Source: a virus
Taxonomy: Duplodnaviria; Heunggongvirae; Uroviricota; Caudoviricetes
IMG/VR virus record: IMGVR_UViG_2877251553_000001
Coordinates: 10,207-74,206 of that record
Direction: 5' to 3' (one strand)
DNA: 64,000 bases
Within the stretch, counting starts at the first letter, position 1. The number at the start of each line of letters is the position of its first letter. Both the position numbers and the translations under genes were made by a program. Under the pieces are notes generated by a model. The model was not told the origin of the DNA. It made no database searches and saw only the letters and a list, made by a program, of their open reading frames with translations. Shown here piece after piece: positions 11,350-21,068 of the stretch.

Positions 11350-12856
11350 TGGCAATTCTTGATGATGTGATTGGCGTTTTTTCACCTGGATGGAAAGCGG
11401 CAAGGCTGCGTTCCCGTGCGGTGATCCAGGCTTATGAAGCCGTAAAAACGACGCGGACACACAAAGCCCGACGGGAGAACCGAACTGCCGACCAGCTAAG
11501 CCAGTACGGGGCCGTGTCGTTACGTGAGCAGGCCCGTTACCTTGATAACAACCACGATCTGGTTATTGGTGTATTTGACAAGCTGGAAGAACGGGTGGTG
11601 GGGAAAAACGGGATTATTGTCGAGCCACATCCGGTATTACGCAATGGGGCCATTGCCCGTGATCTGGCAGCGGAGATTCGCACCCGATGGAGTGAATGGT
11701 CTGTCAGCCCGGAAGTCACCGGGCAGTTTACCCGTCCGATGCTGGAACGTCTGATGCTGCGTACCTGGCTGCGCGATGGTGAGGTGTTTGCCCAGATGGT
11801 TTCCGGGCGCATAAACAGCCTGACGCCTTCTGCCGGTGTTCATTTCTGGCTGGAGGCGCTCGAGCCGGACTTTATTCCCATGACCAGTGATGAGAGCAAC
11901 AGGCTGAATCAGGGCGTGTTTGTTGATGACTGGGGCGTCCCGAAAAATATCTGGTGTATAAAAGCCGTCCCGTATCCGGACGGCAGATGGAAACCAAAGA
12001 AGTGGATGCAGAGCGAATGCTGCATCTTAAATTTGTTCGCCGTCTGCACCAGATGCGCGGGACGTCTTTGTTGTCCGGTGTGCTGATCCGCCTCAGTGCC
12101 CTGAAAGATTATGAAGATTATGAGCTGACTGCAGCAAGGATCGCCGCTGCTCTGGGGATGTACATCCGCAAAGGCGACGGGCAGAGCTATGAACCGGATG
12201 GTAATGGCAGCAAGGATAAGGAACGCGAGCTTACCATTCAGCCAGGCATTATTTACGATGATCTGAAACCCGGCGAAGAAATCGGAATGGTGAAGTCGGA
12301 TCGCCCCAATCCTAACCTTGAAACTTTTCGTAATGGTCAGTTGCGTGCCGTGGCGGCGGGCAGTCGTCTGAGTTTTTCCAGTACAGCGCGCAACTATAAC
12401 GGCACTTACAGCGCCCAGCGTCAGGAGCTGGTTGAATCTACTGATGGCTACCTGATCCTGCAGGACTGGTTTATTGGTGCCGTCACCCGCCCGATGTATC
12501 GTGCATGGCTGAAACAGGCTGTGGCATCCGGTGTTATCAGGCTACCCCGCGATCTTGACCGTTCTTCACTGTATACCGCGGTGTATTCCGGACCAGTGAT
12601 GCCGTGGATTGACCCTGTTAAGGAGGCTGAGGCCTGGAAAATCCAGATTCGTGGTGGAGCGGCGACAGAATCAGACTGGGTACGTGCTGGTGGTCGTAAT
12701 CCGGATGATGTCAAACGTCGGCGCAAGGCCGAAATTGATGAAAACCGCAAGCTGGATCTGGTATTTGATACCGATCCGGCCAGTGATAAAGGAGGCAGTA
12801 GTGCCGCAACGAAACGACAGGAGCCGCAGCACACCGACGACCAGTCCGAAGATTAA
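11349..12856 (+). CDS. B: Portal protein (lambda gpB-like); apparent frameshift near 11945
   Basis: Two overlapping ORFs rejoin with one extra A in the A run at 11943-11947. Confidence 0.8.
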
Positions 12857-12869
12857 TTCCTGGTTCAGG

Positions 12870-14827
12870 ATGCAGGCTGGTCACCAGAGTGACGCGGATA
12901 TTTATATTTATGACGAGATTGGTTTCTGGGGTGTTACAGCGAAGCAGTTTATCAGTGATCTGAATGCACTGGGCGATATCACCCACATTAATCTCCATAT
13001 CAATTCACCGGGTGGCGATGTCTTTGAAGGCATCGCCATTTTTAATGCGCTGAAAACACATGGTGCGTCCATTACCGTTTATGTCGACGGTGTGGCGGCG
13101 TCAATGGCGTCGGTCATTGCGATGGTGGGAAACCCGGTCATTATGCCGGAAAACACCTTCATGATGATTCATAAACCATTTGGCTTTACGGGCGGTGATG
13201 CGGAGGACATGCGCACCTATGCCGACCTGCTCGATAAGGTTGAGGCGGTTCTGTTACCCGCTTATGCACAGAAAACCGGGAAAACCACCGATGAAATTGC
13301 TGCCATGCTGGCGGATGAGACCTGGATGTCCGGTGCCGAATGTCTGGCACATGGATTTGCTGATCAGGTGACGCCAGCCGTTAAGGCAATGGCATGTATT
13401 CAGTCAAAACGTACAGAGGAATTTAAAAAGATGCCGGAATCCATTCGAAACATGATTACTCCGCCACGCAACAGTGCTCCACGCGTACAGGATGATGAAC
13501 CTGCAGCCTCCCGGACGCCAGTGCAGGCAGCAGCACCCGTGGTGAATGAAAACAGTATCCGTGCGCAGGTACTGGCAGAGCAAAAAGCGCGTGTAAACGG
13601 TATTAATGATCTGTTTGCCATGTTTGGCGGGCGTTATCAGACGCTGCAGGCTCAGTGTCTTGCCGATCCTGAGTGTTCGCTGGAGCAGGCCCGCGAAAAG
13701 CTGTTGAACGAGATGGGGCGCGAGTCCACGCCATCCAATAAAAATACACCGGCTCATATTTATGCTGGTAACGGTAATTTTGTGGGGGACGGGATTCGCC
13801 AGGCGCTGATGGCGCGTGCCGGATTTGAAAAAACCGAACGTGATAATGTCTACAACGGGATGACCCTGCGTGAATATGCCCGTATGTCACTGACTGAACG
13901 GGGTATTGGGGTTTCCGGTTATAACCCGATGCAGATGGTCGGTGCGGCGTTCACCCACAGTACGTCTGACTTCGGTAATATTCTGCTGGATGTTGCGAAC
14001 AAAGCCATTCTGCAGGGCTGGGAAGATGCTCCTGAAACCTATGAACAATGGACGCGGAAAGGTCAGTTGTCTGATTTTAAAATTGCCCATCGTGTGGGTA
14101 TGGGGGCTTCAGTGCTCTGCGTCAGGTGCGTGAAGGGGCGGAATATAAATACGTCACCACCGGAGATAAACAGGCCACTATTGCACTGGCGACCTATGGC
14201 GAGCTGTTCAGTATCACCCGTCAGGCCATTATCAATGATGATCTGAATATGCTGACCGATGTCCCGATGAAACTGGGCCGTGCGGCGAAATCCACTATTG
14301 CCGATCTGGTTTATGCCATTCTGACGTCTAACCCGAAAATCTCCACAGATAATGTAAGTCTGTTCGATAAAGCGAAACATGCAAACGTACTGGAGAGCGC
14401 TGCAATGGACGTGGCATCGCTGGATAAAGCCCGCCAGTTGATGCGCGTTCAGAAAGAGGGGGAGCGTCATCTGAATATTCGTCCTGCGTTCGTACTGGTA
14501 CCGACGGCGATGGAGTCTGTTGCTAACCAGGTCATTCGCTCCTCAAGTGTCAAGGGGGCTGACATTAACGCCGGTATTATTAACCCGGTGAAAGATTTTG
14601 CGACCGTTATTGCAGAGCCCCGTCTTGATGATAACAGCCAGACCACCTTCTACCTGGCTGCGTCAAAAGGCTCCGATACGATTGAAGTGGCTTATCTCAA
14701 CGGTGTGGATACGCCATATATTGATCAGATGGAGGGCTTCAGTGTGGATGGCGTGACAACGAAAGTGCGTATTGACGCCGGTGTCGCGCCAGTTGATCAC
14801 CGCGGTCTGGTGAAATGTACGGCGTAA
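12870..14827 (+). CDS. Prohead protease (ClpP-like) / scaffold / major capsid fusion; apparent frameshift near 14104
   Basis: N-terminal ClpP-like serine protease region and C-terminal capsid region; frames rejoin at G run 14102-14106. Confidence 0.75.
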
Positions 14828-16492: not shown

Positions 16493-16502
16493 GGAGGTGG
16501 CA

Positions 16503-17246
16503 ATGACCACACCAAATCCACTGGCAAAAACGAAAGGTGCGGGAACGACGTTCTGGATGTACACCGGCAAGGGCGATGCGTTTGCGAACCCTTTATCGGA
16601 CACTGACTGGCTGCGTCTTGCGATGGTGAAGGATCTGCAGCCTGGCGAAATGACCGCTGATGCAGAAGATGACACTTATCTCGATGATGAAGATGCAGAC
16701 TGGAAAACGACAACCCAGGGGCAGAAATCCGTCGGTGATACTTCGGCGACGCTGGCCTGGCGTCCGGGTGACAGCGGGCAGAAAAAACTGGTTCAGTTGT
16801 TCGACTCCGGTGAAGTCTGCGCGTTTCGTATCAAATATCCCAACGGTACTGTTGATGTTTTCCGTGGCTGGCTGAGTTCACTGGGTAAAACCATTGCCTC
16901 AAAAGACGTGATGACCCGCACAGTGAAAATCAGCGGTGTGGGGCGTCCGTATCTGGCAGAAGAAGGCACTGAAATCGTGGGCGTTACCGGGCTGACGGTG
17001 GCACCGGCATCTGCCAGTGTAAAAGTGGGAGCAACCACCACGCTGACCTTTACAGTAAAACCTGACGGAGCCAGTGACAAAGCGATCAGTGTGCATTCGA
17101 CAGATCCACAGACTGCCACGGTGACCCTGAACGGGCTTGTGGCCACGGTGAAAGGCGTGAAGCAGGGCAGTGTCAGCATTGTGGGCATGACTTCTGACGG
17201 CGATTTTGTGGCAGTGGCTACGGTGGCTGTCAGCGCCGCAGGTTAA
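16503..17246 (+). CDS. V: Major tail protein V with C-terminal Ig-like domain
   Basis: AAGGAGG ribosome-binding site; N-terminus KGAGTT and NGTVDVFRGW match lambda gpV. Confidence 0.85.
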   Translation: MTTPNPLAKTKGAGTTFWMYTGKGDAFANPLSDTDWLRLAMVKDLQPGEMTADAEDDTYLDDEDADWKTTTQGQKSVGDTSATLAWRPGDSGQKKLVQLFDSGEVCAFRIKYPNGTVDVFRGWLSSLGKTIASKDVMTRTVKISGVGRPYLAEEGTEIVGVTGLTVAPASASVKVGATTTLTFTVKPDGASDKAISVHSTDPQTATVTLNGLVATVKGVKQGSVSIVGMTSDGDFVAVATVAVSAAG

Positions 17247-17266
17247 CAGGACGATACTCATCATTT

Positions 17267-17291
17267 GCCCCGATTATCCGGGGCTTTTTTG
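17267..17291 (+). terminator. Rho-independent terminator after major tail gene
   Basis: GCCCCGATTATCCGGGGC hairpin plus T6. Confidence 0.5.
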
Positions 17292-17306
17292 CAGGTGGAG
17301 AACATG

Positions 17307-17693
17307 ATGTTTCTGAAACAGGGCACGTTTAATTATGAAAAGCAGTCCGTGGTGCTCAGTGAGCTGTCCGGGCTGCAGAGAATTGAATATCTGGCGTTTG
17401 TTCAGCAGCGAACGGCAAAGTTTGATGCCGAAGAGGGAGAACTGCCGGAGGCTGAACGACAGATTGCTTTTCTGCGGATGGGGATGGATATCAATGCCTG
17501 GCTGGTTTCCCGCTCACTGTGGAATGCGGATCAGTCTAAGGATGTAGAGACGCTTTGCGCATCCGTTATTACAACATGGTCGTATGATGCCCTGGGTGCG
17601 GGGGCGGAGATGGTTCTGTCGCTGAGCGGTATGGGGACCATTGATAATGCCGGGGATGATGAGCATGAGGCGCTGACGCCGGAAAAGTCCTGA
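17307..17693 (+). CDS. G: Tail assembly chaperone G
   Basis: MFLK start and LSELSxLQRIE motif as in lambda gpG. Confidence 0.75.
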   Translation: MFLKQGTFNYEKQSVVLSELSGLQRIEYLAFVQQRTAKFDAEEGELPEAERQIAFLRMGMDINAWLVSRSLWNADQSKDVETLCASVITTWSYDALGAGAEMVLSLSGMGTIDNAGDDEHEALTPEKS

Positions 17694-18031
17694 CGCGGGA
17701 AATGCAGTTTGTCATGCGGCTTGCCCGGGAGTTCCGGCGGGCAGACTGGCGGCGGATGCTGTCGGAAATGTCGGCCACTGAGCTTGGTGAGTGGGGCGAT
17801 TATTTCCGGATGCAGAGCTTCAGTGATGTGTGGATGGATGCGCAGTTTGCCTCGCTGAAGGCATTGATCGTGAGAATGGTGTCCGGCAGTAGTGATGCTG
17901 CGGTGGCTGATTTCAGCCTTTTACCGGAAGAGAACGGGATACCGGAGCGAACGGACGAAGAACTGATGCATCTTGGGGAAGGTATTTCCGGAGGTGTGCG
18001 TTATGGACCAGATAGCCAACCTGGTCATTGA
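17307..18031 (+). CDS. T: Tail assembly chaperone G-T, product of -1 frameshift near 17681
   Basis: T frame is -1 relative to G and opens after stop at 17666-17668; lambda G/T paradigm; slip site as read is non-canonical. Confidence 0.45.
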
Positions 18032-21000
18032 TTTGGGGATTGATGCGGCAGAGTTTAAAAATGAAATCCCCCGTATCAAAAACCTTCTGAATGGTGCAGC
18101 CAGCGATGCAGAACGATCTTCTGCCCGTATGCAGCGTTTTATGGAGCGTCAGACTCAGGCCGCCCGGCAGACAACGCAGGCGGCTTCTTCGGCTGCAACA
18201 GCCGCATCCGTCCATGCGCAGACGGTGGAGAAGAACGCACAGGCTCATGAACGCATGGCCCGCGAGGTGGAGAAAACCCGCCAGCGCATGGAGGCGCTGA
18301 GCCAGAAAATGCGCGAGGAACAGGCGCAGGCCATGGCTCTGGCGGAGGCTCAGGATAAAACAGCTGCTGCGTTTTATCGTCAGATTGACAGTGTGAAACA
18401 GGCCAGTGCGGGGCTGCAGGAATTACAGCGTATTCAGCAGCAGATCCGACAGGCCAGAAACAGTGGCGGGATTGGTCAGCAGGATTATCTGGCGCTGATT
18501 TCTGAGGTTACGGCGAAAACCCGTGTTCTTACGCAGGCTGAGGAAGAGTCTACCCGACAGAAAGTGGCGTTTATCCGTCAGCTTAAAGAGCAGGCAACCC
18601 GCCAGAATCTTTCTTCTTCTGAGTTGCTTCGTGCCAGGGCTGCCCAGCTGGGGGTAAGCAGTGCTGCAGAAGTGTATATCCGCAAAATGGAGCAGGCAGG
18701 AAAAGCCACGCATTCGCTGGGTCTGAAAAGTGCAGCAGCCCGCCAGGAGATAGGCGTTCTGATAGGTGAACTGGCCCGTGGCAATTTAGGAGCGCTGAGG
18801 GGATCCGGGATAACGCTGGCTAACCGTGCCGGATGGATAGACACACTGATGTCACCGAAAGGCATGATGCTGGGCGGGGTTATTGGCGGTATTGCCGCGG
18901 CCGTCTATGGTCTGGGTAAAGCCTGGTATGACGGTCAGAAGGAGGGGGAAGAATTTAACCGCCAGCTGTCACTGACGGGGCATTATGCCGGAGTCACTGC
19001 CGGGCAGCTGTGGACGCTCAGTCGTGCTATTTCCGGGAATGGTATCACGCAACATGCTGCAGCCGGTGCGCTGGCTCAGGTGGTGGGGAGTGGTGCATTT
19101 CGTGGAAACGATATCGGTATGGTGGCGAGAGCTGCCGCACAGATGGAGCGATCGGTTGGCCAGTCGGTCAGCGATACCATAAATCAGTTTAAGCGGCTGA
19201 AGGATGATCCTGTAAATGCCGCGAAGGCTCTGGACAATGAGCTGCATTTTCTTACTGCCACTCAGCTTGAGCAGATACGCGTCCTTGGGGATCAGGGGCG
19301 GTCCAGTGATGCTGCACGGATAGCCATGTCTGCACTGGCAGAGGAAACCGGTCGGCGTACTGCGGATATTGATAATAACCTCAATGCGCTGGGCAGTACG
19401 CTGAAGTATCTGTCTGATTTATGGAATCGTTTCTGGGATGCGGCCATGAATATTGGTCGTGAAGACTCGCTGGATGAACAGATTGCCGCTTTACAGGAGA
19501 AAGTGTCGCGGGCGAAAAGACTCCCCTGGACGGCATCATCTTCTCAGGTTGAATACGATCAGCAGCGTCTTAACGATCTTCAGGAGAAAAAACGCCAGAA
19601 GGATTTGCAGGATGCAAAAGAGCAGGCAGAGCGGAATTATCAGGAGCAACAGAAACGCCGTAATGCTGAAAATGCTGCACTGAACCGGATGAATGAAACG
19701 GAAGCTGCACGACATCAGCGTGAAATTGCGCGTATTAATGCCATGCAGTACGCCGATCAGGCTGTCAGGGATGCGGCGATACAACGTGAAAATGAACGTT
19801 ACGAGAAAGCCCTGGCATCCGGTAAGAAAAAAACACGCGAAACCCGTAATGATGAGGCCACCCGGTTATTGCTGCAGTACAGTCAGCAACAGGCACAGGT
19901 GGAAGGACAGATTGCTGCTGCCAGACAGTCAGCAGGCATTGCCACGGAAAGGATGACAGAAGCGCATAAACAGCTTCTGGCTCTGCAGCAGCGCATCAGC
20001 GACCTGGACGGGAAAAAACTGACGGCAGATGAAAAGAGTGTGCTGGCCCGTAAAGATGAACTGATTCAGGCACTGACGCTGCTGGATGTAAAACAGCAGG
20101 AGCTTCAGAAACAGACGGCACTCAACGAGCTGAAGAAAAAAACAATTCAGCTGACCAGTCAACTGGCTGAAGAAGAGCGCGCTCAGCGTCAGCAACATGA
20201 CCTGGATATCGCCACGGTGGGTATGGGTGATCAGCAGCGACAGCGATATCAGGTACAACTGAGTCTTCGCCAGAAATACCAGCAACAGCTGGAGCAGTTG
20301 AGGCGGGATAGTGAGCAGAAAGGGACATATAACACGGATGACTACAGAAAGGCCGAGCAGGCGCTGACGGAGAGCCTGAACCGACAACTGAATGAGAATC
20401 GCCGTTACTGGCAACAGCTTGAAGTTGTGCAGGGTAACTGGAAAAACGGAGTCCTGCGTGCATTTCAGGATTTTACCGTGGATGCAGATAATACGGCAGA
20501 AACAGCAGAACAGGTGTTCTCGTCAGCCTTCAGCAACATGGGAAATGGCCTGGCAACTTTTGTCACTACCGGCAAACTCAATTTCAAATCCTTCACCTCT
20601 TCTGTGCTGTCAGATATGGCGAAAATCCTGGCGCAGGCAACCATGATGAAATCGATAAAAGGGATTGGCAGTGTACTGGGATTTGATCTCAGCAGCCTTT
20701 CCCTGAATGCCAATGGGGGGATTTATCAGTCTGCTGATTTGAGTCGTTACAGTGGCACGGTGGTTAACCGTCCGACGTTTTTTGCTTTTGCAAAAGGCGC
20801 GGGTGTGATGGGGGAAGCGGGACCTGAAGCCATTCTGCCATTGCGTCGTGGTGCTGACGGTAAGCTGGGGGTTGTGGCGGATATTGGGGGTTCAGGTATG
20901 GCGATGTTTTCCCCGCAGTACAACATCGAGATCAATAACGATGGCACGAACGGGCAGATAGGTCCGGCTGCCCTGAAGGCGGTTTATGACCTCGGGAAAA

Positions 21001-21068
21001 AAGCGGCAGCGGACTTTATGCAACAGCAGGCCCGTGATGGTGGTCGGTTAAGTGGAGCATATCGGTAA
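18003..21068 (+). CDS. H: Tail tape measure protein H
   Basis: 1021 aa, coiled-coil rich; C-terminus NNDGTNGQIGPAALKAVYD matches lambda gpH. Confidence 0.85.
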   Translation: MDQIANLVIDLGIDAAEFKNEIPRIKNLLNGAASDAERSSARMQRFMERQTQAARQTTQAASSAATAASVHAQTVEKNAQAHERMAREVEKTRQRMEALSQKMREEQAQAMALAEAQDKTAAAFYRQIDSVKQASAGLQELQRIQQQIRQARNSGGIGQQDYLALISEVTAKTRVLTQAEEESTRQKVAFIRQLKEQATRQNLSSSELLRARAAQLGVSSAAEVYIRKMEQAGKATHSLGLKSAAARQEIGVLIGELARGNLGALRGSGITLANRAGWIDTLMSPKGMMLGGVIGGIAAAVYGLGKAWYDGQKEGEEFNRQLSLTGHYAGVTAGQLWTLSRAISGNGITQHAAAGALAQVVGSGAFRGNDIGMVARAAAQMERSVGQSVSDTINQFKRLKDDPVNAAKALDNELHFLTATQLEQIRVLGDQGRSSDAARIAMSALAEETGRRTADIDNNLNALGSTLKYLSDLWNRFWDAAMNIGREDSLDEQIAALQEKVSRAKRLPWTASSSQVEYDQQRLNDLQEKKRQKDLQDAKEQAERNYQEQQKRRNAENAALNRMNETEAARHQREIARINAMQYADQAVRDAAIQRENERYEKALASGKKKTRETRNDEATRLLLQYSQQQAQVEGQIAAARQSAGIATERMTEAHKQLLALQQRISDLDGKKLTADEKSVLARKDELIQALTLLDVKQQELQKQTALNELKKKTIQLTSQLAEEERAQRQQHDLDIATVGMGDQQRQRYQVQLSLRQKYQQQLEQLRRDSEQKGTYNTDDYRKAEQALTESLNRQLNENRRYWQQLEVVQGNWKNGVLRAFQDFTVDADNTAETAEQVFSSAFSNMGNGLATFVTTGKLNFKSFTSSVLSDMAKILAQATMMKSIKGIGSVLGFDLSSLSLNANGGIYQSADLSRYSGTVVNRPTFFAFAKGAGVMGEAGPEAILPLRRGADGKLGVVADIGGSGMAMFSPQYNIEINNDGTNGQIGPAALKAVYDLGKKAAADFMQQQARDGGRLSGAYR

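What the first reader, a model, noticed from the sequence alone, without database searches (positions are those of the whole stretch)
17666..17704. G to T tail-chaperone frameshift window lacks a canonical slippery heptamer as read
The T frame is -1 relative to G and is open only between 17669 and the G stop at 17691, as expected for the lambda G/T programmed frameshift. The available sequence there (GCCGGAAAAGTCC) does not contain the GGGAAAG-type heptamer. Either a non-canonical slip site is used or this is another homopolymer miscall.
Basis: partly seen in the sequence, partly recalled or inferred. Interest (0 to 1): 0.25.

Follow-up and report, generated by a model that had tools for sequence, protein, structure and literature searches.

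The report
Ordinary phage tail-chaperone frameshift site
The lambda-like prophage's G/T tail-chaperone genes carry the slip sequence G_GAA_AAG, one base different from lambda's textbook G_GGA_AAG; it is the usual site in this phage family and not a sequencing error, so the finding is ordinary.

Summary
G (17307-17693) and T (-1 frame, open from 17669) overlap by 22 nt, and that overlap has no GGGAAAG. It does hold G_GAA_AAG (17681-17687) in the correct register, a single substitution from lambda's G_GGA_AAG and not an indel.

It is not a miscall. The same 33-51-mer is found in more than 1,800 complete E. coli genomes and in isolated phages (cdtI, mEp460, Ayreon). It is an invariant island even in Gifsy-1, which is only about 70% identical overall.

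Across 320 G/T loci (21 lineages at 70% G identity), G_GAA_AAG is the only motif in 17 lineages and the main one in an 18th. Only lambda's own lineage uses G_GGA_AAG. The phi80 GenBank record annotates exactly these 7 bases as the slippery sequence.

Heptamer position 1, a synonymous third base after five different codons, is G in 20 of 21 lineages. The T frame aligns without gaps from the heptamer. An ATG at the annotated T start occurs in only 2 of 21 lineages.

No conserved Shine-Dalgarno-like (SD-like) or structural stimulator was found.

Best explanation: low-efficiency programmed -1 frameshifting, with tRNA-Lys moving AAG to AAA and tRNA-Glu moving GAA to GGA through a G•U pair, giving a 241-aa G-T fusion. 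This is already known and of low interest.

The parts
17307..17693 (+). Gene G, tail assembly chaperone (128 aa; an alternative ATG lies at 17304); stop TGA at 17691-17693
   Evidence: Pfam Phage_TAC_2 5.8e-40; translation; 32-36% identical to lambda, phi80 and HK225 gpG
17666..17668 (+). TGA in the -1 (T) frame that sets the 5' limit of the frameshift window
   Evidence: Sequence; script gives T frame open from 17669
17669..17693 (+). G/T overlap, the only stretch where a -1 shift can join G to T
   Evidence: GGAAAAG is the only in-register Y_YYZ or X_XXY_YYZ motif inside it
17681..17687 (+). Shift site G_GAA_AAG (0-frame codons GAA Glu, AAG Lys; -1 frame codons GGA, AAA)
   Evidence: Same heptamer in the same register in about 290 of 320 loci; the only motif in 17 of 21 lineages and in 33 of 34 loci of an 18th; 7-column conservation peak of 1.45-2.0 bits, position 1 G in 20/21; annotated as the slippery sequence in phi80
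17687..18031 (+). T segment decoded in the -1 frame after the shift (114 aa, VLTREMQFVMRLAREF...; stop 18029-18031); predicted G-T fusion 127 + 114 = 241 aa
   Evidence: Translation; Pfam Phage_tail_T 5.1e-15; the T frame aligns without gaps from the heptamer in 21 lineages
17702..17704 (+). ATG used by database annotation as the start of a separate T gene; probably not a conserved initiation codon
   Evidence: ATG at this position in only 2 of 21 lineages, the rest CTG, CGN, CAT and others; the conserved T-frame Glu codon lies upstream of it
16500..17246 (+). Context: major tail tube protein V with a C-terminal Big_2 domain
   Evidence: Pfam Phage_TTP_12 1.5e-66, Big_2 1.7e-11
18003..21068 (+). 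Context: tape measure protein H, overlapping the 3' end of T
   Evidence: Pfam TMP_2 2.7e-49, Tape_meas_lam_C 4.7e-22

Best explanation
This is the standard lambda-type G/G-T programmed -1 ribosomal frameshift, carried out on the near-cognate heptamer G_GAA_AAG (17681-17687). Most ribosomes read ...Pro-Glu-Lys-Ser-stop and release the 128-aa chaperone G. A small fraction slip back one base while tRNA-Glu occupies GAA (P site) and tRNA-Lys occupies AAG (A site). tRNA-Lys (anticodon UUU, the only Lys tRNA in E. coli) re-pairs perfectly with AAA. tRNA-Glu (anticodon UUC) re-pairs with GGA using two Watson-Crick pairs and a middle-position G•U pair. Translation then continues with GTC CTG ACG... 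in the T frame and yields a 241-aa G-T fusion (...TPEK-VLTREMQFVMRLAREF...). By analogy with lambda, this fusion links the tape measure protein to the tail tube protein during tail assembly. What is shown here: the gene identities, the frames, the single in-register motif, its conservation, and the absence of a conserved T start codon. What is inferred: that the fusion is actually made, how efficiently, and the two-tRNA geometry of the slip.
For: G and T are Pfam Phage_TAC_2 and Phage_tail_T, placed between V and H. GGAAAAG is the only in-register slippery motif in the 22-nt overlap. An 18-base block, ACGCCGGAAAAGTCCTGA, is invariant between this window, cdtI, Ayreon and Gifsy-1 although the flanks diverge; a shorter block, CCGGAAAAGTCCTGA, is also shared by the diverged N61 prophage. 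In 320 loci the in-register motif is GGAAAAG in about 290 and GGGAAAG in 20. Seventeen of 21 lineages use only GGAAAAG and an 18th uses it in 33 of 34 loci. Heptamer position 1 is G in 20/21 lineages after CCG, GCG, CTG, TTG or GTG, whereas neighbouring third positions carry 0.1-0.3 bits. That fits P-site re-pairing to GGA. The T frame aligns gaplessly from the heptamer (GK[VAI]xxxE.xF..LAREF.RPDWR), and an ATG at +21 occurs in 2 of 21 lineages. phi80 record FN582354 annotates GGAAAAG as the 'slippery sequence for -1 translational frameshift' with a joined G-T CDS. The Gifsy-1 and Gifsy-2 records describe T as made by frameshifting. Literature: A_AAG is the most shift-prone tetramer in E. coli (PMC4066793) and is used at G_CGA_AAG by IS1222 (PMC5009743). 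GAA-to-GGA re-pairing through G:U, and a 'twofour' motif class, are noted for tail chaperones (PMC10885494).
Against: No protein data exist for this lineage. In a reconstituted E. coli system G GAA AAG served as the 'less slippery' sequence and gave mainly the 0-frame product (PMC6924986). Bare tetramers are near background in vivo without a stimulator (PMC4066793). No conserved stimulator was found here: SD-like matches are no better than elsewhere in G, the downstream fold has z = +0.57 or -1.77, and the 21-lineage alignment shows no covarying pairs. The efficiency could therefore be well below lambda's few percent.
Confidence: 0.85

Rival explanations
1. The sequence is miscalled at the A run, or was originally GGGAAAG, and the true phage has a canonical heptamer.
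For: The window does contain three isolated one-base contractions of G-runs relative to cdtI. They are private or nearly so among roughly 1,800 related E. coli prophages: exact matches in 1/1852, 7/1823 and 0/1812 records, in different strains.
Against: The slip-site region is the consensus state. The exact 51-mer is in 585 records and the rest differ outside the heptamer; the 36-mer is present in 1,817 records. It is the same in isolated, independently sequenced phages and in Salmonella and Providencia phages. GGGAAAG versus GGAAAAG is a substitution, not a homopolymer length change. One extra A would fuse G and T in frame and remove free G.
Confidence: 0.01
2. The shift is a single-tRNA slip of tRNA-Lys on the tetramer A_AAG, for example P-site slippage while the next codon or the nearby stop is slowly decoded. 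The preceding GAA codon plays no re-pairing role. The protein product would be identical.
For: A_AAG alone is a proven minimal -1 site in E. coli, and N_CGA_AAG sites are used by IS1222 and B. subtilis cdd. Five lineages have a stop codon directly after AAG, and two loci have C_GAA_AAG or A_GAA_AAG, which cannot re-pair at position 1. [quoted passage not shown]
Against: Positions 1-3 of the heptamer (G, G, A) are nearly invariant across lineages although position 1 is a free synonymous site after five different codons. Pure tetramer slippage would not predict that. Tetramers without a stimulator are near background in vivo, and no stimulator is conserved.
Confidence: 0.2
3. T is translated on its own from ATG 17702, as RefSeq and GenBank annotate it ('phage tail assembly protein T'), and no frameshift is needed.
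For: An ATG is present at 17702 in this lineage, and databases annotate a separate CDS.
Against: An ATG at this position occurs in only 2 of 21 lineages. T-frame conservation, including an invariant GAR Glu codon, and gapless collinearity extend upstream of it to the heptamer. The only purine-rich stretch, GGGAA, abuts the ATG with about 2 nt of spacing. In lambda, T sequences are made only as the G-T fusion (PMC5009743).
Confidence: 0.04
4. The frame change is made by RNA polymerase slippage on the A4 run, not by the ribosome.
For: The site contains a short homopolymer, and inserting one A in the mRNA would give the G-T frame.
Against: From established knowledge, documented transcriptional slippage sites need runs of about 6-9 or more identical bases, and four A's are far below that. 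The conserved unit is the full heptamer in codon register, including the 3' G and the 5' GG, which is the signature of tRNA re-pairing.
Confidence: 0.01

Closest known systems
Bacteriophage lambda G / G-T programmed -1 frameshift (Levin, Hendrix & Casjens 1993; Xu, Hendrix & Duda 2004, 2013)
   Same: Homologous G (Phage_TAC_2) and T (Phage_tail_T) domains, the same V-G-T-H gene order, T in the -1 frame, the shift site at the 3' end of G in the same register, and the same A-site event (AAG to AAA by tRNA-Lys). The T-frame sequence is collinear from the heptamer.
   Different: Heptamer position 3 is A, not G (G_GAA_AAG against G_GGA_AAG). The P-site tRNA is therefore tRNA-Glu re-pairing to GGA with a middle G•U, instead of tRNA-Gly moving from GGA to GGG. 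The G stop lies 3 nt after the heptamer instead of 15. The G proteins are only about 33% identical.
Phage phi80 gpG-T (GenBank FN582354), and the N15/HK225-type and Gifsy/Fels-type prophages
   Same: An identical heptamer, GGAAAAG, in the identical register. It is explicitly annotated as the slippery sequence, with a joined G-T CDS, in phi80. The Gifsy-1 record describes T as made by translational frameshifting.
   Different: A different G lineage (35% identity for phi80, 56% for Gifsy-1). The preceding codon is GCG rather than CCG in phi80, and the stop lies 15 nt downstream in phi80.
A_AAG tetranucleotide -1 shift sites (IS3; IS1222 G_CGA_AAG; B. subtilis cdd A_CGA_AAG)
   Same: The same A-site slip of the single E. 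coli tRNA-Lys from AAG to AAA, with a P-site codon that is not a perfect XXY (PMC5009743; PMC4066793).
   Different: The IS sites depend on a downstream pseudoknot or hairpin. None is conserved here. Here the P-site codon can still re-pair through G•U.
E. coli dnaX A_AAA_AAG frameshift
   Same: A -1 shift whose A-site codon is AAG, read by tRNA-Lys.
   Different: dnaX has a perfect heptamer plus an upstream SD-like element and a downstream stem-loop, and reaches about 50% efficiency. Neither stimulator is supported here, and a low efficiency is expected.

Membership tests
Lambda-type G/G-T tail assembly chaperone with programmed -1 frameshift | Upstream ORF is a gpG-family tail assembly chaperone | tested here: met
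   Pfam PF06894 Phage_TAC_2, 5.8e-40, 136 bits against a cutoff of 27
Lambda-type G/G-T tail assembly chaperone with programmed -1 frameshift | Downstream ORF is a gpT domain in the -1 frame, overlapping the 3' end of G | tested here: met
   Pfam PF06223 Phage_tail_T, 5.1e-15; -1 frame open 17669-18031, G stop at 17691
Lambda-type G/G-T tail assembly chaperone with programmed -1 frameshift | Located between the major tail protein and tape measure protein genes | tested here: met
   V (Phage_TTP_12) at 16500-17246, H (TMP_2, Tape_meas_lam_C) at 18003-21068
Lambda-type G/G-T tail assembly chaperone with programmed -1 frameshift | A conserved slippery sequence in register inside the overlap | tested here: met
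   G_GAA_AAG at 17681-17687; the same motif and register in about 290 of 320 loci; the only motif in 17 of 21 lineages and the main one in an 18th
Lambda-type G/G-T tail assembly chaperone with programmed -1 frameshift | T has no conserved initiation codon of its own and is made only as a fusion | tested here: met
   ATG at the annotated start in 2 of 21 lineages; T-frame conservation begins at the heptamer. That no free T is made is inferred, not shown.
Lambda-type G/G-T tail assembly chaperone with programmed -1 frameshift | A G-T fusion protein is produced at a few percent of G | not testable with these tools
   Needs proteomics or reporter assays
Canonical X_XXY_YYZ slippery heptamer | Positions 1-3 identical and positions 4-6 identical | tested here: not met
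   GGA AAA G: position 3 is A, not G. It meets the near-cognate criterion only if a middle-position G•U pair is allowed (PMC10885494; PMC6924986).
Z_ZZN tetranucleotide -1 shift site | A_AAG with AAG as the 0-frame codon | tested here: met
   AAG is the 0-frame codon at 17685-17687, preceded by A at 17684
Stimulated -1 PRF signal (dnaX/IS type) | Conserved SD-like element 6-17 nt upstream, or a stem-loop or pseudoknot 5-9 nt downstream | tested here: not met
   SD-like duplex energies are no better than elsewhere in G (median rank 0.32; 0.26 for this lineage). Downstream fold z = +0.57 and -1.77. RNAalifold on 21 lineages gives -1.29 kcal/mol with 0 covarying pairs. No Rfam match.
Sequencing artefact (homopolymer miscall) | The sequence differs from independently sequenced close relatives by a run-length change | tested here: not met
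   Identical in more than 1,800 complete E. coli genomes and in isolated phages. Contrast the private G-run contractions elsewhere in the window.

The most novel reading that the evidence does not exclude
The textbook lambda heptamer is the exception. Most lambda-type G/T pairs (17 of 21 lineages sampled exclusively, an 18th mainly) use G_GAA_AAG, a sequence that biochemists have used as a poorly slippery comparison and that has no conserved SD-like or structural stimulator. Two explanations remain open. Middle-position G•U re-pairing by tRNA-Glu may be much more effective in vivo than in vitro work suggests. Alternatively, an unrecognised stimulator may operate, such as the conserved ...T-P/A-E-K nascent peptide or the nearby stop codon. 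These phages may also run at a G:GT ratio well above lambda's 30:1.
Probability: 0.2. Interest if true: 0.3.

Novelty: already known. Interest (0 to 1): 0.08.

Why it matters
It matters little beyond annotation. RefSeq and most GenBank records of this very common E. coli prophage type, present in about a third of complete genomes, annotate T as a free-standing gene starting at an ATG that other lineages lack. They should annotate a G-T fusion joined at GGAAAAG. The survey is also a reminder that searches restricted to strict X_XXY_YYZ motifs miss the majority shift site of the lambda G/T family. The in vivo efficiency of G_GAA_AAG is still worth measuring.

Tried and rejected
1. Homopolymer miscall at the slip site. 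Rejected by identity with more than 1,800 genomes and with isolated phages.

2. Upstream SD-like stimulator. GAGG at 17667-17670, 10 nt upstream, looked promising, and AGG motifs occur 10-13 nt upstream in the Gifsy, Fels and N61 relatives. However, duplex energies are no better than in random blocks of G (rank 0.26 here, median 0.32), and phi80/HK225-type lineages lack any such element.

3. Downstream stimulatory structure. The single-sequence fold is marginal (z = -1.77; 14 of 200 shuffles as good) and begins 1 nt after the heptamer. The per-lineage folds differ from one another. RNAalifold finds no shared structure or covariation.

4. Rfam scan of 17200-18200. Only a meaningless sub-threshold lncRNA hit.

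5. A single-protein scan of genome contigs, and the first viral-contig scan, returned only near-identical relatives. Reordering the query alignment was needed to reach other lineages.

6. Full-text searches for the string GGAAAAG were mostly noise.

7. Xu, Hendrix & Duda 2004 is not held in the library, so I could not check whether it already tabulates this heptamer.

Full report
**1. The observation**

The window between 16.5 and 21 kb is a lambda-type tail module. The major tail tube protein V (Pfam Phage_TTP_12, 1.5e-66) lies at 16500-17246 and the tape measure protein H (TMP_2, 2.7e-49) at 18003-21068.

Between them lie two ORFs:
- a 128-aa ORF at 17307-17693 that matches Phage_TAC_2, the lambda gpG family, at 5.8e-40
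- a -1 frame ORF that matches Phage_tail_T at 5.1e-15

Reading the sequence, the G-frame codons at the 3' end are GCG CTG ACG CCG GAA AAG TCC TGA, with the stop at 17691-17693. The -1 frame is closed by TGA at 17666-17668 and open from 17669 to 18031. A script confirmed these limits.

It differs from lambda's G_GGA_AAG by one substitution, not by an insertion or deletion.

**2. It is not a miscall**

- The 771-bp G-T region is 98-99.9% identical to isolated phages (cdtI, mEp460, Ayreon, Tritos and others) and about 70% identical to Gifsy-1.
- In alignments, an 18-base block, ACGCCGGAAAAGTCCTGA, is invariant between the window, cdtI, Ayreon and Gifsy-1.
- A shorter block, CCGGAAAAGTCCTGA, is also invariant in an O157 prophage and in the diverged N61 prophage, while the sequence just upstream is scrambled.
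- The exact 51-mer around the site occurs in 585 complete E. coli records. About 1,240 more differ by one base; in the sequences I read (an O157 prophage and phage Ayreon) that base is C to T at 17671, outside the heptamer.
- A 36-mer centred on the site is found in 1,817 records, which is 1,814 of 5,426 genomes.

The window does have one-base contractions of G-runs relative to cdtI at about 11932 (portal), 14102 (protease-capsid fusion) and 15175 (decoration protein). Among roughly 1,800 related prophages these are exact in only 1, 7 and 0 records respectively, and in different strains.

Those three sites look like homopolymer errors or private mutations. The G/T site, by contrast, is the consensus state. 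Adding one A would also fuse G and T in frame and abolish free G, which is incompatible with the family's biology.

**3. How general the site is**

I fetched distant lambda-family G/T loci from the phage collection and about 300 loci from IMG/VR, using reordered G alignments. For each locus a script located G, delimited the G/T overlap and listed the in-register motifs.

| In-register motif | Loci (of 320) |
|---|---|
| GGAAAAG | about 290 |
| GGGAAAG | 20 |
| Rare variants (GGCAAAA, GGCAAAG, GGAAAAA, CGAAAAG, AGAAAAG) | a handful |

Collapsed to 21 lineages at 70% G-protein identity, 17 use G_GAA_AAG exclusively, and an 18th (the HK225 type) uses it in 33 of 34 loci. Only lambda's own lineage uses G_GGA_AAG.

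phi80 is one of the GGAAAAG phages. Its GenBank record FN582354 carries a joined G-T CDS and a misc_feature, 'slippery sequence for -1 translational frameshift', on exactly those seven bases. The Gifsy-1 and Gifsy-2 records likewise describe T as made by frameshifting.

**4. Evidence that the heptamer is the functional unit**

- Anchored on the heptamer, the 21 lineage representatives show seven consecutive columns of 1.45-2.0 bits, preceded by a poorly conserved acidic linker.
- Position 1 of the heptamer is the third base of the preceding G codon and is never decoded in the T frame. It is G in 20 of 21 lineages, after five different codons (CCG, GCG, CTG, TTG, GTG).
- The third positions at -3, -6 and -9 carry only 0.1-0.3 bits.
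- The T frame aligns without a single gap from the heptamer onward: GK[VAI]xxxE.xF..LAREF.RPDWR.
- The codon at +21, which in this window is the ATG (17702) used by RefSeq as the start of a separate 'tail assembly protein T', is ATG in only 2 of 21 lineages.

T therefore has no conserved start of its own, and its conserved coding begins at the shift site.

**5. Mechanism**

The best-supported reading is a tandem -1 slip:
- tRNA-Lys(UUU) is the only lysine tRNA in E. coli (PMC5009743). It moves from AAG to AAA with perfect pairing.
- tRNA-Glu(UUC) moves from GAA to GGA with a middle-position G•U pair. PRFect's authors point to the same re-pairing for tail-chaperone sites, and they list a 'twofour' XXYYYY motif class (PMC10885494).

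The product would be G residues 1-127 (...TPEK) followed by 114 T-frame residues (VLTREMQF...), 241 aa in all.

A variant mechanism is slippage of tRNA-Lys alone on the tetramer A_AAG, the best tetramer in E. coli, which is used at G_CGA_AAG by IS1222. It gives the same protein and cannot be excluded. The conservation of heptamer positions 1-3 argues that the P-site tRNA contributes.

**6. Stimulators**

Bare tetramers are near background in vivo and need a pseudoknot to reach 5.6% (PMC4066793). In a reconstituted system G GAA AAG served as the 'less slippery' sequence and gave mostly 0-frame product (PMC6924986). I therefore looked for stimulators and found none that is conserved:
- SD-like complementarity 4-17 nt upstream is no better than in other blocks of G (rank 0.26 for this lineage, median 0.32 across lineages).
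- The downstream fold is unremarkable (z = +0.57; z = -1.77 with 14 of 200 shuffles as good).
- RNAalifold on the 21 lineages gives -1.29 kcal/mol and no covarying pair.
- Rfam has no match.

The expected efficiency is therefore low. That fits a system that in lambda needs only about one G-T per 30 G (PMC5009743), but it has not been measured for this heptamer in vivo.

**7. Comparison and verdict**

This locus meets every testable defining feature of the lambda G/G-T frameshift system. It fails only the strict X_XXY_YYZ rule, by one base, in the same way as most of its relatives.

It is an already known arrangement in one of the commonest E. coli prophage types. The finding is ordinary.

Two things remain of mild interest. 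The textbook heptamer turns out to be the minority form in its own family. And the majority form's in vivo efficiency, and any hidden stimulator, have apparently not been characterised.

Noticed in passing
window ~11932, ~14102, ~15175: There are three isolated one-base contractions of G-runs relative to phage cdtI, in the portal gene, the ClpP-protease/major-capsid fusion gene and the DUF2190/decoration gene. The one at 14102 splits the capsid gene into ORFs 12609-14246 and 14126-14827. Exact matches to each variant occur in only 1/1852, 7/1823 and 0/1812 related E. coli records, in different strains, so they are private homopolymer errors or inactivating mutations.
   Followed up: partly
window 17267-17290: A G+C-rich hairpin (GCCCCG-ATTAT-CCGGGGC) followed by TTTTTT sits between the major tail gene V and gene G. 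The equivalent position is annotated 'terminator' in phages Ayreon and mEp460. A partial terminator here could help set the V to G/T/H stoichiometry.
   Followed up: no
window 17702-18031; RefSeq/GenBank relatives (L001, L004, L005, L321): Public records of this prophage type annotate T as an independent CDS, starting either at an ATG that only 2 of 21 lineages possess or at a CTG inside the overlap. None of the records examined for this lineage carries a joined G-T CDS.
   Followed up: yes
L013 (lambda), L014 (phi80), L017, L018 (HK225), L102, L233: about 35-70 nt downstream of the heptamer: Several lineages other than the window's fold into a strong hairpin inside the T coding region (z about -2.2 to -4.7). 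It lies too far downstream to be a classical frameshift stimulator and is not shared across lineages.
   Followed up: partly
L108, L109, L153 and one locus of the L018 cluster (IMG/VR contigs): Rare variant shift sites occur at the homologous position: G_GCA_AAA, G_GAA_AAA, C_GAA_AAG, A_GAA_AAG and G_GCA_AAG. Most have a stop codon directly after the heptamer. These are natural experiments on which heptamer positions are dispensable.
   Followed up: no
L007 and L012 (genome contigs): Near-identical copies (91-95%) of this E. coli-type G gene occur in metagenome-assembled genomes labelled 'Bacillota bacterium' and 'Proteobacteria bacterium'. The Bacillota label suggests a binning contaminant.
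   Followed up: no
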